Below are positions 423-8,315 of a DNA stretch of 11,381 nt, in pieces. This DNA is from an uncultured Candidatus Saccharibacteria bacterium (GTDB lineage: Bacteria > Patescibacteriota > Minisyncoccia > Phycocordibacterales > UBA12088), in contig CAZMPG010000033.1 in NCBI GenBank assembly GCA_964568345.1, positions 1 to 11,381 on the forward strand. Direction: 5' to 3'. The position numbers were made by a program, and so were the translations under genes. Under the pieces are notes generated by a model. The model searched no databases. It saw only the letters and a program-made list of their open reading frames with translations, and was not told where the DNA came from. Position 1 is the stretch's first letter. Every line of letters starts with the position of its first letter.

Positions 423-1808
423 ATGTTAGATATTCCCTTCTTGTCGGTCGGACTCACTCTGGTCGGCATCCTGTTCGTTCTTACCATCATTCTGGCGATC
501 CTCTTCCGCAAGGTCGTGAGCACTAACATGGTGCATATCGTCCAGAGTAGCAGTAAGACCAGGCCCTACGGTACCAACCTCAACGGCGGCAACGTCTATT
601 ACCGTTGGCCAAGCTGGATCCCGAAGTTCGGGGTCACTGTCATCGAACTTCCCGTGTCAAACTTCAATCGTGGCCTCAAAAACTACGAAGCGTATGACAA
701 GGACCGGGTACCGTTCATGGTCGACGTTACGGCGTTCTTTCGAATCGCTGATACAGCGCGCGCTGCACAGCGTGTAGCGAGCATGGCAGACCTCAACGAG
801 CAGCTGGACTTGATCGTTCAAGGTGCTGTTCGTAAGGTGCTTGCCTCTGACGTTATCGACAAGATCATGCTCGAGCGCGCACAGTTCGGTAGCCTCTTCA
901 CTAACGAGGTCACCGAACAACTCGCCGAGTGGGGTGTGGAGCCTGTCAAGGCCATGGAGCTCATGGATATCCGCGACAGTAGCCACGACAGCCGCGTCAT
1001 TGCCAACATCATGGCGAAGAAGAAGTCTCACATCGAGATGGAAAGCCGGAGGGAAGTGGCTGAAAACATGCGCGCTGCCGAAATGGCAGAAATCACTGCC
1101 CGTCGTGAAGTCGACATCCAACGCCAGCAGGCCGAACAGGCTGTCGGTGAACGGACGGCCGAGAAGGAAAAGGTCGTCGGTATTGCGCAGCAGAAGGCGG
1201 CGCAGGAGGTAAAAACCGAAGAAGCCAACACTAAAGCCAAGGAAATGGCAGTCGTCAAAGTCGGTCAGGTGCAACAAGCCGAAATCGACCGCGACGCGGC
1301 CATTGTCGCTGCTGACCAGCAACGCGAGGTAGCCATCCGTGAAGCAGACGGCAAGCTCGAAGCTGCTAAGCGTGAGGCCGAGGGTGTGCGAGTGAACGGT
1401 GTCGCAAGGGGTGAGGCTGAACAGGCGATTCTCATGGCACCGGTCAATGCCCAAATCGCTCTGGCGGAGAAGATCGCTTCGTTGCCCGAGTATCAGGAAT
1501 ACCTGCGGGCTATCGAGGCGATCGGAGCCTATCGGACGGTAGGTAGCGAGCAAGCAAAGGCATTGCAGTCGGCCGACGTCAAAGTCATCTCCAACGCCGG
1601 CAAACCTGGCGAAGGGATGACCAACGTCATGGACCTGTTCACCGCGAGCGGTGGTACCAATCTGGCCTCGGCGGTCGAAGCGTTTGCGCAGAGCCCGCTC
1701 GGCAAGTCCATCGTAGGCAAGCTGACCAGTCCTGCTTCGGCCAATGTCACTGACGCTCCGGCCGAGCTGCAACCTGCTGAAGAAGGCGGGCGAGGCTCGA
1801 AGAAGTAA
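423..1808 (+). CDS. Flotillin-like SPFH/band-7 membrane protein (FloT/YuaG/YqiK family)
   Basis: 461-aa ORF. It has an N-terminal hydrophobic anchor (LSVGLTLVGILFVLTIILAILF). An SPFH core follows (…VPFMVDVTAFFRIAD…). Then comes a long Glu/Ala/Gln-rich coiled-coil 'flotillin' region (AEMAEITARREVDIQRQQAEQA… EAAKREAEG) and a Gly/Ser/Ala-rich C-terminal tail. AGGTGA lies 4-5 nt upstream of the ATG. GC is about 55%, below that of the flanking core genes. Confidence 0.9.
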   Translation: MLDIPFLSVGLTLVGILFVLTIILAILFRKVVSTNMVHIVQSSSKTRPYGTNLNGGNVYYRWPSWIPKFGVTVIELPVSNFNRGLKNYEAYDKDRVPFMVDVTAFFRIADTARAAQRVASMADLNEQLDLIVQGAVRKVLASDVIDKIMLERAQFGSLFTNEVTEQLAEWGVEPVKAMELMDIRDSSHDSRVIANIMAKKKSHIEMESRREVAENMRAAEMAEITARREVDIQRQQAEQAVGERTAEKEKVVGIAQQKAAQEVKTEEANTKAKEMAVVKVGQVQQAEIDRDAAIVAADQQREVAIREADGKLEAAKREAEGVRVNGVARGEAEQAILMAPVNAQIALAEKIASLPEYQEYLRAIEAIGAYRTVGSEQAKALQSADVKVISNAGKPGEGMTNVMDLFTASGGTNLASAVEAFAQSPLGKSIVGKLTSPASANVTDAPAELQPAEEGGRGSKK

Positions 1809-7488: not shown

Positions 7489-8046
7489 CTACGCACGTGC
7501 CTCCGCGCTTTGGTGCAAAAACGTCCGCAATTTCTCAACCGCGATACGCCTCATGCTCACGCTGTTCTTTTCAGTGAACGTCATCTCAGCAAATGTCCGA
7601 TCGTGCCCATCAGGCTGGAAGATCACGTCCCAGCCGAAACCCGACACCCCCGCCCGGACGGGCACGATAGTGCCGGGAACCACACCCTCAAAAAACGCTA
7701 TGTCGTCTCGAGACCTAGCATACCCGATGATCGTCTTTGCCTCTGCCCTCCTATTGCCCAGTCTCTCGACTATGTCCACGAGGCCGCCGGTGCCAATAGT
7801 GGCGAGGAACCACTTGATGAGCGGGCCCGGCAGACCCTTGAGGCTCTCGAGGTAGAGCGAGGTGTCCTCGATGATGCATGCGCCGTCCCGGTGGCGCAGT
7901 GCCTCGAGCAGCTTCGCCCGGACCACGTTTCTCGCGTCCACGTCCTGGATCTCTGGCAGGTCAATATCCACCTGTTCAACCTCGCCGCCGAGTATAGCCG
8001 CTACCTCCTCGAACTTATTCCGATTGCCGGTGATAAAGGAGAGCAT
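7489..8046 (-). CDS. rdgB: Non-canonical purine NTP pyrophosphatase (RdgB/Ham1 ITPase family)
   Basis: LSFITGNRNKFEEV is the family N-terminal signature. The protein is 185 aa. Other family features include FAEMTFTEKNSVSMRRIAVEKL. Confidence 0.85.
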   Translation of the reverse strand: MLSFITGNRNKFEEVAAILGGEVEQVDIDLPEIQDVDARNVVRAKLLEALRHRDGACIIEDTSLYLESLKGLPGPLIKWFLATIGTGGLVDIVERLGNRRAEAKTIIGYARSRDDIAFFEGVVPGTIVPVRAGVSGFGWDVIFQPDGHDRTFAEMTFTEKNSVSMRRIAVEKLRTFLHQSAEARA

Positions 8047-8057
8047 GGGATGGAGCA

Positions 8058-8210
8058 GTGGACGTTACAGGACTCGATGCCTACCGCATCAGTACACCTT
8101 GTGGCTCGTCTGGTTCGTGCTGCGGCACTCCCCAACAAGGCTCACAAGGTTTTCGAGTCCGCGCGACGCTTTTCTGCGAAAAGCTGCGCGTAACGTCCGC
8201 AGCTCGTCGC
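8058..8210 (-). other. Degenerate tRNA-Val-derived copy / recombination scar, bounded by a 20-nt perfect direct repeat of the tRNA 3' end
   Basis: 8058-8077 GTGGACGTTACAGGACTCGA is identical to 8226-8245, which is the tRNA-Val 3' acceptor/T-stem. 8187-8204 (GCGCGTAACGTCCGCAGC) resembles the tRNA 5' end (GAGCTAAACGTCCGCAAC). On the minus strand the copy reads GGACGTT-AC-GCGC…GCGC…CATCGAGTCCTGTAACGTCCA, with about 80 extra nt and no intact anticodon arm. A plus-orientation T-arm-like GGTTTTCGAGTCC is also present at 8149-8161. Confidence 0.4.
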
Positions 8211-8226
8211 TTCGCTGCCTCGCTGT

Positions 8227-8298
8227 GGACGTTACAGGACTCGAACCTGTGACCTCTCCCGTGTGAAGGGAACGCTCTACCAGCTGAGCTAAACGTCC
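8227..8298 (-). tRNA. tRNA-Val (anticodon CAC)
   Basis: Minus strand: GGACGTT TA GCTC AGCTGTA GAGC G TTCCC TTCACAC GGGAG AGGTC ACAGG TTCGAGT CCTGT AACGTCC A. All four stems pair and the T-loop is TTCGAGT. The anticodon loop carries U33 and A37 around CAC. The tRNA is 72 nt, with CCA not encoded. The D-loop is 7 nt with a single G where GG18-19 is usual. Confidence 0.85.
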
Positions 8299-8315
8299 GC
8301 AACACGAAAATCCTA

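What the first reader, a model, noticed from the sequence alone, without database searches (positions are those of the whole stretch)
8058..8245. tRNA-Val 3' end duplicated 168 bp away, with a degenerate tRNA-like copy in between: recombination scar
A 20-nt perfect direct repeat (GTGGACGTTACAGGACTCGA) brackets a 150-nt segment. The segment starts like the tRNA 5' end and ends like its 3' end, but it has about 80 extra nt and no anticodon arm.

This is the classic footprint of tyrosine-integrase insertion and excision at a tRNA gene (attL/attR-like repeats). Here an element has been lost or reduced to a stub, or else it is an unusual tRNA-derived small RNA. The rdgB start codon lies 11 nt beyond the distal repeat, so the scar may supply rdgB expression signals.
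Basis: seen in the sequence. Interest (0 to 1): 0.6.

Follow-up and report, generated by a model that had tools for sequence, protein, structure and literature searches.

The report
Small tRNA-matched insertion element, not a scar
The "stub" behind the tRNA-Val gene is an intact copy of a previously undescribed family of ~130-250-nt non-coding elements in Patescibacteria that sit behind many different tRNA genes, each carrying both a copy and a split antisense of its own tRNA's 3' end, and that come and go between close strains.

Summary
GTGGACGTTACAGGACTCGA occurs exactly twice, at 8058-8077 and 8225-8244. The second copy is the 3' end of a minus-strand tRNA-Val(CAC), and rdgB starts 11 nt past the distal copy.

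The 147 nt in between are not debris. On the tRNA-sense strand they hold an antisense of tRNA positions about 54-74, split in two by a hairpin. Two more hairpins follow, then the sense copy. The ends pair, and the unit folds as a closed double three-way junction (-70.6 kcal/mol, z = -5.5).

A covariance model built only from four other loci finds the window copy full-length (77 bits, E about 2e-16). I found members behind tRNA-Val, Arg, His, Tyr, Lys and Leu genes, always with stems matched to the neighbouring tRNA. Across 12 distinct members, 39 of 49 pairs show compensatory changes, and G-U outnumbers A-C 17 to 2.

Copies form tandem arrays and decay. They differ between 99.9%-identical strains, and one identical tRNA-His gene carries different subtypes. 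No cargo, integrase, Rfam family or paper matches.

Best reading: a non-autonomous, base-pairing-guided insertion element specific for tRNA 3' ends. The mobilising enzyme is unknown. The "scar of a lost island" reading is not supported.

The parts
8226..8298 (-). tRNA-Val(CAC), intact, no encoded CCA. It is the gene the element is matched to.
   Evidence: ARAGORN; Rfam RF00005 at 69.3 bits.
8225..8244 (-). Proximal repeat copy (core 1): tRNA positions about 55-73 plus 1 nt, TCGAGTCCTGTAACGTCCAC on the minus strand.
8199..8224 (-). Spacer AGCGAGGCAGCGAAGCGACGAGCTGC. In low-GC family members this position holds an intrinsic-terminator-like hairpin; here there is none.
8190..8198 (-). Guide L: GGACGTTAC, the antisense of tRNA positions 64-72. 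It forms the 5' strand of terminal stem P1 and is why the stub 'starts like the tRNA 5' end'.
8161..8189 (-). Hairpin A: GCGC-A-GCTTTTC-GCA-GAAAAGC-GTC-GCGC. It splits the antisense in two and sits at the first three-way junction.
   Evidence: Folds. It was the seed motif that retrieved the family. Variant hairpins sit at this position in other members.
8152..8160 (-). Guide R: GGACTCGAA, the antisense of tRNA positions 54-62 (T-loop plus start of the T-stem 3' strand). It forms the 5' strand of P2.
8097..8149 (-). Hairpin B. It is variable in sequence and length between members, but the stem is kept by compensatory changes.
8091..8096 (-). Junction TGTACT. It is part of the UACUG motif shared by all type I members except the divergent L038 copies.
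   Evidence: Alignments.
8076..8090 (-). Hairpin C: GATGC-GGTAG-GCATC. The stem covaries and the loop is GUA-like.
8058..8077 (-). Distal repeat copy (core 2). It pairs with guide R (P2) and guide L (P1), leaving U63 unpaired, and so closes the element.
7489..8046 (-). rdgB/Ham1 gene, the downstream neighbour. It is not part of the element and the linkage is not conserved in relatives.
   Evidence: Pfam; synteny lost.

Best explanation
Window 8058-8224 (minus strand) is one intact copy of a family of small non-coding, non-autonomous insertion elements of Patescibacteria (Paceibacteria / Parcubacteria group). These elements lie immediately 3' of tRNA genes.

Each unit is built around its own tRNA's last ~20 nt. 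It begins with an antisense of tRNA positions about 54-74, usually split by a hairpin into guide L and guide R. It then contains variable structured modules. In the subtype present here (type I) these are hairpin B, a UACUG junction and hairpin C. It ends with a sense copy of the tRNA's last 17-23 nt.

Sense and antisense pair. P1 mimics the acceptor stem and, where guide L is long enough, the stacked T stem. P2 pairs the T-loop region. The single strand of tRNA polarity therefore closes into a double three-way junction.

Shown: the architecture, its covariation, matching to about ten tRNA species, tandem arrays, decay, and gain or loss between near-identical strains.

Inferred: the element inserts at the tRNA 3' end in a way that leaves a complete tRNA gene and duplicates its 3' end. 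The site is specified by base pairing between the internal guide and the tRNA 3'-end sequence, in an RNA or single-stranded DNA form. An enzyme supplied in trans, not identified, carries out the reaction.
For: (1) Family membership. Model R1 was built from four other loci only (A3). It hits window 8060-8198(-) over its full length at 77 bits, E about 2e-16.

(2) Structure. All 8 first members fold alone into P1 - hairpin A - P2[B, C], with z from -3.3 to -9.0. On 12 distinct members 96.2% of cells are paired, 39 of 49 pairs have compensatory changes, and 0 of 500 shuffles reach this. The 4-sequence seed gives the same picture.

(3) Strand. G-U/U-G occurs 17 times against A-C/C-A 2 times in helices. 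The tRNA-sense strand folds better in 8 of 8 members.

(4) tRNA matching. Sense and antisense copies of the neighbouring tRNA's 3' end lie downstream of Val(CAC), Arg(GCG), His, Tyr, Lys, Leu(TAA), Arg(TCT) and Val(TAC) genes. No tRNA in the non-Patescibacteria and Saccharibacteria control loci shows this.

(5) Scaffold reuse. Near-identical scaffolds carry wholesale-different guide and core sequences: L033 Arg, L039 His and L037 Leu.

(6) Dynamics.
- Tandem identical units occur in L018 and L038.
- Decayed copies occur in L034, L037 (Lys) and L040 5091-5209.
- A clean 157-nt unit starting at the last base of tRNA-Leu(GAG) is present or absent between 99.9%-identical strains.
- A 256-nt insertion holding an R1 hit is filled in L058 and empty in L054.
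- One identical tRNA-His gene carries a type I element in L039 and two type II elements in L054/L055.
- Distribution is patchy: none in about 100 kb of other Patescibacteria loci.

(7) No cargo. Nothing coding lies inside any unit. Neighbours checked by Pfam are housekeeping genes.
Against: No transposase, integrase or reverse transcriptase was found linked to any copy, so mobilisation in trans is assumed.

No empty-site allele of the window's own tRNA-Val locus exists in the data. The nearest rdgB relative is 76% identical and not syntenic.

The two clean polymorphisms involve atypical or type II-like modules, not a canonical type I unit. The 157-nt one could be a deletion between 97-nt repeats.

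Strong purifying pattern on guide-hairpin-guide also fits a host function: 47 nt with a single change between window and L018, while hairpin B is unalignable.

In L034 and L037 (Lys) the guide stays matched to the tRNA while the distal copy decays. 'Guide-only' forms also exist. Both fit a host function equally well.

Transcription is not demonstrated. In low-GC members a terminator-like hairpin lies between the tRNA and the element.

How guide and core are re-templated together when the target tRNA changes is unexplained.
Confidence: 0.6

Rival explanations
1. A host-serving structured small RNA. The unit is read through from the tRNA promoter. Its closing stem copies the neighbour tRNA's acceptor / T-stem minihelix and discriminator, so RNase P and RNase Z could cut it out like a tRNA and the CCA-adding enzyme could tail it. 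It would then act as a tRNA-specific mimic, decoy or regulator. The copies spread by duplication.
For: The fold is strong and covarying, with G-U bias on the tRNA-sense strand.

P1 reproduces the acceptor stem, plus the T stem where guide L is long, and ends exactly at the discriminator or one base beyond.

Many low-GC copies are followed by their own terminator-like hairpin.

The guide segments stay matched to the tRNA where the distal copy decays (L034, L037 Lys).

Guide-only forms persist.

In the window there is no terminator between tRNA-Val, the stub and rdgB.
Against: Distribution is patchy even within Patescibacteria.

Copies are decayed or truncated. Tandem arrays occur. Different subtypes sit behind one identical tRNA-His gene. 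Presence differs between 99.9%-identical strains.

One related copy is not next to any tRNA.

No expression data exist. No Rfam family matches.

A trans-acting RNA would not need to sit next to its tRNA.
Confidence: 0.25
2. attL/attR-like repeats were left by a tyrosine-integrase element, a prophage or island, that integrated into the tRNA-Val T-loop. It was later deleted down to about 150 bp of arm DNA.
For: The direct repeat starts in the T-loop and runs to the tRNA end, which is the classic sublocation for tRNA-targeting integrases (own knowledge, Williams 2002).

A complete tRNA is retained.

Tandem accretion at one tRNA is also typical of integrase sites.
Against: None of more than 15 loci has cargo or an integrase between or beside the repeats.

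All loci share one compact, covarying fold. Random deletion would not reproduce that.

The att model gives no role to the split antisense of the core.

The 20-mer and three family motifs are absent from 2.9 M viral contigs; the three exact matches to one motif were not confirmed by the model.

The same scaffold serves about ten different tRNAs.
Confidence: 0.08
3. A degenerate tandem duplicate of the tRNA-Val gene (pseudogene), or an intron-containing or permuted tRNA.
For: The order of helices is cloverleaf-like: terminal stem, hairpin A, hairpin B, hairpin C.

The 25-nt 5' similarity to the tRNA is 80% (D5).
Against: ARAGORN finds nothing with or without introns at relaxed thresholds, and nothing in tmRNA mode.

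The Rfam tRNA model gives no hit in the stub even at E <= 10.

The 5' similarity is explained by complementarity to the 3' strand, and that complementarity runs past the acceptor stem into T-stem and T-loop positions.

Internal modules are shared with elements behind unrelated tRNAs.

Patescibacteria tRNA introns described so far are group I introns in the anticodon loop (PMC13011429).
Confidence: 0.03

Closest known systems
Integrative elements at tRNA genes (tyrosine-integrase att sites) and their non-autonomous derivatives such as cis-mobilisable elements
   Same: They sit at the 3' end of a tRNA gene. A direct repeat runs from the T-loop to the tRNA end. The tRNA stays intact. Units can accrete in tandem.
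   Different: This element is only 120-250 nt, with no genes and no integrase nearby. It has a conserved single-strand fold. It carries an internal split antisense of the core. One scaffold is retargeted to about ten tRNAs.
IS200/IS605 transposons and their gene-less derivatives (PATEs, REP/BIME)
   Same: These are small, hairpin-rich and strand-specific. In IS608 a short 'guide' next to the foot of a subterminal hairpin base-pairs with the flanking target or cleavage site (own knowledge; Guynet et al. 2009). That matches the layout here: tRNA end, linker, guide L, hairpin A.
   Different: Guides there are 4 nt, against 17-23 nt in two halves here. Those elements have no terminal complementarity and no target duplication. 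No Y1 transposase was seen.
Folded single-strand recombination sites: integron attC and CTX-phage attP(+)
   Same: Each is an imperfect palindrome of about 60-150 nt whose single strand folds to recreate a duplex recombination site. Structure is conserved and sequence is not.
   Different: No GTTRRRY/RYYYAAC boxes, no cassette, integron or dif context. The stem sequence here equals a tRNA 3' end.
Guide-RNA-directed mobile elements: group II intron EBS/IBS pairing and IS110 bridge RNA
   Same: A bipartite internal guide is complementary to the insertion target. The target can be changed by changing the guide.
   Different: Both guide halves pair with the same strand and are occupied in cis by the element's own core copy. 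No intron domains, no recombinase and no reverse transcriptase are present. There are no Rfam hits.
tRNA-like structures and minihelix mimics (tmRNA tRNA-like domain, bacterial Y-RNA-like YrlA, viral tRNA-like structures)
   Same: The closing stem reproduces an acceptor stem with its discriminator.
   Different: The T-loop is paired rather than presented. There is no match to those Rfam families. The identity follows whichever tRNA is adjacent.

Membership tests
tRNA, including intron-containing tRNA (Rfam RF00005 / ARAGORN) | A cloverleaf with an anticodon arm, scoring above threshold | tested here: not met
   Only 8226-8298 scores. The stub gives no tRNA hit at E <= 10. ARAGORN with introns and relaxed thresholds finds nothing.
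tmRNA | A tRNA-Ala-like domain plus a tag reading frame | tested here: not met
   ARAGORN in tmRNA mode finds nothing. Rfam finds none.
Integrase att scar / remnant genomic island at a tRNA | Direct repeat of the tRNA 3' part, from T-loop or anticodon loop to the 3' end | tested here: met
   20-nt exact repeat from T55 to the discriminator plus 1.
Integrase att scar / remnant genomic island at a tRNA | An integrase or cargo genes between or beside the repeats, here or in relatives | tested here: not met
   There is no ORF inside any unit. Neighbours are housekeeping genes. No cargo-bearing variant appears in more than 15 loci. Viral scans are negative.
MITE (miniature inverted-repeat transposable element) | Terminal inverted repeats and small non-coding size | tested here: met
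   The ends are complementary over 15-23 nt and units are 120-250 nt.
MITE (miniature inverted-repeat transposable element) | Many near-identical copies with the same termini, short fixed target duplication, and a parent IS with a transposase | tested here: not met
   The termini differ with each tRNA. The 'duplication' is 17-23 nt of tRNA. No parent element was found. Whole genomes were not available.
IS200/IS605-type gene-less elements (PATE / REP) | Subterminal hairpins with a guide-to-cleavage-site pairing, and strand-specific | tested here: inconclusive
   The layout is analogous and there is strand bias. However, guides are about 5 times longer, the ends are complementary, and hairpins A and C are unlike each other.
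IS200/IS605-type gene-less elements (PATE / REP) | A cognate Y1 (HUH) transposase in the genome | not testable with these tools
   Only 2-20-kb pieces of the carrier genomes could be fetched. None was seen in them.
Integron attC | R''/L''...L'/R' boxes with GTTRRRY, next to gene cassettes or intI | tested here: not met
   The sequence lacks the boxes (T-loop GTTCGAG). The context is tRNA and housekeeping genes.
IS110 bridge RNA | Two internal loops guiding target and donor on opposite strands, encoded beside an IS110 recombinase | tested here: not met
   Both guide halves complement one strand contiguously. There is no recombinase gene.
Group I tRNA introns of Patescibacteria | Inserted inside the tRNA (anticodon loop), with a group I catalytic core | tested here: not met
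   The tRNA is uninterrupted. There is no Intron_gpI hit. See PMC13011429.
Any Rfam 15 family | Score at or above gathering threshold | tested here: not met
   Only tRNA reaches the gathering score in the window and in the seven loci scanned. In E-value mode the window stub and the L039 unit give only sub-threshold, apparently chance hits.

The most novel reading that the evidence does not exclude
A programmable, nucleic-acid-guided homing element with no genes of its own. A bipartite 17-23-nt internal guide, split by a hairpin, reads the 3' end of a tRNA or tRNA gene and directs insertion of a ~150-nt RNA or ssDNA unit exactly there. Guide and terminal copy are re-templated together when the element moves to a new tRNA. 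That would be a new class of guided mobile element, or a tRNA-minihelix-mimicking RNA that hijacks tRNA-processing enzymes, in the reduced genomes of Patescibacteria.
Probability: 0.3. Interest if true: 0.9.

Novelty: new variant of a known kind. Interest (0 to 1): 0.78.

Why it matters
If the family is what it appears to be, Patescibacteria carry a very small site-specific element. It has no protein gene, and its target seems to be written in a bipartite antisense segment that can be swapped to suit at least ten different tRNAs.

This bears on how tRNA genes became the favoured landing sites of mobile DNA. It also bears on whether base-pairing guides are used for insertion outside group II introns, IS200/IS605 and IS110.

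On the practical side, these units create spurious ORFs. One example is the 104-aa ORF over the two L038 units; others are the window ORFs 8058-8252 and 7862-8266. They may also account for assembly breaks at tRNAs in Patescibacteria metagenome-assembled genomes (one contig set breaks at this tRNA's 3' end).

Even if it is instead a host RNA, a covarying ~140-nt fold that mimics the acceptor / T-stem helix of whichever tRNA is adjacent is a new structured-RNA class, absent from Rfam 15.

Tried and rejected
(1) rdgB as a synteny anchor. The closest homologues (76-68% identical) are not next to a tRNA. Three more rdgB loci (about 100 kb) had 5 distinct tRNAs and no element.

(2) Viral-contig scans. 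I searched for the 20-mer, the hairpin A 20-mer and two B/C motifs. There were no true hits. Three exact 17-mer hits were chance, with no R1 match and no tRNA.

(3) Finding more members through spurious ORFs. That search was wasted.

(4) Known ribozymes. Mapping the conserved UACUG and GAA junction strands onto a hammerhead fails because the GAAA would sit in the wrong junction. Rfam finds no hammerhead, twister, pistol, hatchet or HDV-like match.

(5) H/ACA-like pocket. This is rejected because the junction leaves 0-1 unpaired nucleotide, at a variable position 61-64 (derived).

(6) Retroviral-type primer-binding site. This is disfavoured because the guide complements the gene sequence (discriminator plus C) and not a CCA tail.

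(7) The terminator as part of the element. I first argued this from similar A/T tracts, then withdrew it. The similarity is generic to bidirectional terminators in that lineage. Only the L033/L034 spacers share a specific TTTTTACGTG end.

(8) Assembly break in SRR20718477 at 8224-8253 as evidence of an empty-site allele. This is rejected because the 30-mer overlap includes a stub-specific base. A tRNA shared with a related organism explains it.

(9) Literature. Six searches found no description of the motif or architecture. One further query failed on a term-length limit.

Full report
**1. The observation**

The 20-mer GTGGACGTTACAGGACTCGA occurs exactly twice in the window, at 8058-8077 and 8225-8244. 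Allowing 3 mismatches adds no further copy, and none of 200 dinucleotide shuffles gave two matches. With one mismatch the repeat extends to 23 nt.

The copy at 8225-8244 is the 3' end, from T-loop position 55 to the discriminator plus one base, of a minus-strand tRNA-Val(CAC) at 8298-8226 (ARAGORN; Rfam 69.3 bits). The rdgB/Ham1 gene (Pfam E = 3.6e-41) starts at 8046, 11 nt beyond the distal copy.

Five Logan contigs of the same organism match the window at 99.95-100% identity overall. Four of them span the stub with 100% identity, and the fifth ends at the tRNA 3' end. The organism is a Patescibacteria (Parcubacteria group) bacterium, judged from its rdgB relatives.

**2. Anatomy of the stub**

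Read on the tRNA-sense (minus) strand, the order is as follows:
- 26-nt spacer (8224-8199)
- GGACGTTAC (8198-8190)
- a 29-nt hairpin, GCGC-A-GCTTTTC-GCA-GAAAAGC-GTC-GCGC (8189-8161)
- GGACTCGAA (8160-8152)
- a 53-nt hairpin B (8149-8097)
- TGTACT (8096-8091)
- a small hairpin C (8090-8076)
- the repeat copy (8077-8058)

The two 9-mers are the exact antisense of tRNA positions 64-72 and 54-62. I call them guide L and guide R. Guide L therefore looks like the tRNA 5' acceptor strand.

In isolation the 143-nt unit folds to -70.6 kcal/mol (z = -5.5; 0 of 200 shuffles fold as well). The fold is a terminal stem P1 (guide L with the acceptor strand), hairpin A, and a stem P2 (guide R with the T-loop region) that encloses hairpins B and C. 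With DNA parameters the fold is similar on both strands.

No second tRNA, intron-containing tRNA or tmRNA is present. No Rfam family matches.

**3. It belongs to a family**

A scan of one genome per species for the 20-mer returned ordinary tRNA-Val genes and one two-copy locus, L018 (Candidatus Paceibacterota). L018 has two tandem stubs 157 nt apart. Its first 47 nt (guide L, hairpin A, guide R) differ from the window by one base, and its last 20 nt are identical. Hairpin B is a completely different sequence that still forms a hairpin.

A metagenome scan with the hairpin A 20-mer found six further loci. In each, the unit lies just downstream of a different tRNA: Arg(GCG), His (three loci), Tyr (two tandem copies) and Lys. 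In each, guide L, guide R and the terminal copy match that tRNA rather than tRNA-Val. All eight units fold on their own into the same architecture, with z from -3.3 to -9.0.

I built covariance model R1 from four of these loci, excluding the window and L018. On that seed, 96.4% of cells pair, 18 of 49 pairs show compensatory change, and 0 of 500 shuffles reach this. R1 finds the window stub full-length at 77 bits, E about 2e-16. It also finds further copies with variant hairpins A behind tRNA-Leu(TAA) and tRNA-Arg(TCT).

On 12 distinct members, 96.2% of cells pair and 39 of 49 pairs have compensatory changes. The register is sharply defined, with 37-47% pairing when partners are slid. That alignment is fitted to the model and so leans towards it, but the independently folded single sequences agree.

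As a control, no tRNA in the non-Patescibacteria and Saccharibacteria loci fetched has both a sense and an antisense copy of its 3' end within 500 nt downstream. Most tRNAs in the carrier contigs do.

**4. Variants**

- A 253-nt form lies behind tRNA-Val(TAC), and 'type II' forms lie behind tRNA-His in L054/L055. These replace hairpins B and C with other modules. They keep guide L, a hairpin, guide R and a 19-23-nt terminal copy, and they fold closed.
- Two short 'guide-only' forms consist of a terminator, guide L, a hairpin, guide R and a further terminator-like hairpin. They have no distal copy. They lie behind tRNA-Leu(TAG) and tRNA-Ser(TGA).
- In one type II unit the antisense is contiguous, with no hairpin.

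The invariant logic across all forms is an antisense of tRNA positions about 54-74, usually split near position 61-64. In full-length forms there is also a sense copy starting at about position 54-57 and ending at the discriminator or one base beyond it.

**5. Which strand, and what kind of molecule**

In the helices, G-U/U-G pairs outnumber A-C/C-A 17 to 2. One G-U is conserved in all four seed sequences. The tRNA-sense strand folds 1.7-10.4 kcal/mol better than its complement in 8 of 8 units.

So the folded form has tRNA polarity. RNA is the simplest reading, although single-stranded DNA with G-T pairs is not excluded. In the window nothing resembling a terminator separates tRNA-Val, the stub and rdgB, so co-transcription is plausible. 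In low-GC members a terminator-like hairpin precedes the unit and often another follows it.

The minimum-energy fold of the whole tRNA-plus-stub transcript is a domain-swapped one. In it the guide pairs with the tRNA's own 3' half, and the tRNA 5' strand pairs with the distal copy. That shows the guide can pair with either copy.

**6. Evidence for turnover**

- Scaffolds that are about 90% identical carry entirely different guide L and core sequences: L033 Arg, L039 His and L037 Leu(TAA).
- Identical tandem units occur in L018 and L038.
- Decayed copies occur in L034 (deletion in hairpin B, mutated distal copy), L037 Lys, and L040 5044-5210 (a tRNA-Arg 5' fragment fused to a degenerate unit).
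- Using L19 relatives of L040, which place that lineage in Candidatus Paceibacteria / Nomurabacteria, I fetched orthologous loci.
- L058 and L060 are 99.9% identical but differ by a clean 157-nt unit. It begins at the last base of tRNA-Leu(GAG) and is bounded by 97-nt direct repeats.
- L058 has a 256-nt insertion holding an R1 hit (46.7 bits). It is absent from L054, which has a clean empty site, and this copy is not next to a tRNA.
- One identical tRNA-His gene is followed by a type I unit in L039 and by two type II units in L054/L055.
- About 100 kb of other Patescibacteria loci hold none.
- No unit encloses an ORF with a Pfam domain. The neighbours checked by Pfam are housekeeping genes, and no transposase-like ORF stood out beside the other units (not Pfam-checked).

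**7. Interpretation**

The stub is not the random residue of a lost island. It is an intact member of a compact family under structural constraint. The most economical account of the tRNA-matched ends, tandem accretion, decay, patchiness and strain-level gain or loss is this: a non-autonomous insertion element specific for tRNA 3' ends, mobilised in trans.

The split antisense is present in every subtype, so I infer that it specifies or checks the target by base pairing. That is analogous to the guide-to-cleavage-site pairing of IS200/IS605, to folded single-strand sites such as attC or CTX attP(+), and to the EBS/IBS pairing of group II introns. These comparisons rest on my own knowledge of those systems. 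None passes a membership test here.

Several things remain unknown:
- the enzyme
- whether the intermediate is RNA or DNA
- where the crossover lies. In L039 the tRNA has A57 while the distal copy and guide R keep G57/C, which suggests the junction is 3' of position 57.
- how guide and core are replaced together on retargeting

The main rival is a host-serving tRNA-minihelix-mimicking RNA. It is favoured by the strong constraint on guide, hairpin and guide, and by guides that outlast the distal copy. I give it 0.25.

**8. The rdgB idea**

On the insertion reading, the 11 nt between the distal copy and the rdgB ATG are native sequence that originally followed the tRNA. The linkage of the element is to the tRNA, not to rdgB. 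L018's Val-type units sit in a different context, and rdgB relatives lack the arrangement. There is no evidence that the stub supplies expression signals.

**9. Novelty**

There is no Rfam 15 match in the window, in L039, or in seven carrier loci. Six full-text literature searches found nothing, including a search for the motif sequence itself. The only related paper concerns group I introns in Patescibacteria tRNA anticodon loops, which is a different thing.

I rate it a new variant of a known kind, namely small site-specific non-autonomous elements at tRNA genes. There is a substantial chance, about 0.3, that it is a categorically new guided element or RNA class.

Noticed in passing
window 8224-8253 (contigs L001 and L004): In sample SRR20718477 the assembly breaks exactly at the tRNA-Val 3' end, with a 30-nt overlap between two contigs. 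This is probably a tRNA k-mer shared with a related organism rather than an empty-site allele, because the overlap includes one stub-specific base.
   Followed up: partly
window 8047-8298 (minus strand): The predicted minimum-energy fold of the whole tRNA-plus-stub transcript is domain-swapped. The guide pairs with the tRNA's own 3' half, and the tRNA 5' strand pairs with the distal copy. It could act as a conformational switch or could simply be a thermodynamic artefact.
   Followed up: no
window 7519-7530 and 8291-8302: The 12-mer AAACGTCCGCAA (tRNA 5' end plus 4 upstream nt, plus strand) recurs at the 3' end of rdgB, inside a terminator-like hairpin (7544-7525). Several 12-mer repeats are expected by chance in 11 kb.
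   Followed up: no
L040 5044-5210 (same as L058 7270-7440): A 5' fragment of tRNA-Arg(TCT), running up to the T-stem 5' strand, is fused to a degenerate element (hairpin, B, TGTACTG, C, GATTCC). It lies just upstream of the intact tRNA-Arg(TCT), which has its own element.
   Followed up: partly
L058 10802-11055 versus L060 1405-1501: A 157-nt unit (97-nt repeat plus a 60-nt 'Y' module with two ACTTAGTA repeats) is present or absent between 99.9%-identical strains. It begins at the last base of tRNA-Leu(GAG). Y-like modules also flank the Lys element in L037 and occur in type II units.
   Followed up: partly
L058 13533-13789 versus L054 about 5893: A 256-nt insertion holds a family-related unit (R1, 46.7 bits) bracketed by ACAGTTCCTGTA direct repeats. 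It is not adjacent to any tRNA. The empty site in L054 reads GGATTGCTTCgtaGCGACTCG.
   Followed up: partly
L054 1514-1680: A composite unit lies behind tRNA-Leu(GAG), with two 'right halves' in a row. It looks like a tandem pair that lost the palindrome formed by one unit's acceptor-strand copy, the spacer and the next unit's guide L.
   Followed up: no
L037 about 915-975 and L033 about 1325-1385 (minus strands): 'Guide-only' forms: a split antisense of the upstream tRNA's 3' end, preceded by a terminator and followed by a terminator-like hairpin, with no hairpin B or C and no distal copy.
   Followed up: partly
L033 about 2318-2331: Guide L of the Arg(GCG) element differs from a perfect antisense only by an un-complemented central dinucleotide (GA where TC is expected). 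This gives tandem G-A/A-G mismatches in P1.
   Followed up: no
window 7862-8266 (+), 8058-8252 (+); L038 2343-2657 (-): Open reading frames of 64-134 aa run through the elements and the tRNA antisense. The hairpin A region translates to AFLRKAA or LFCEKL. Such ORFs are likely to be miscalled as hypothetical proteins in metagenome-assembled genomes.
   Followed up: partly
L048 10882-11841 and L049 5710-6669: A XerC/D-type tyrosine recombinase gene lies two genes from the rdgB homologue in a Kaiserbacteria genome. There is no tRNA or element nearby, so it is probably unrelated.
   Followed up: no
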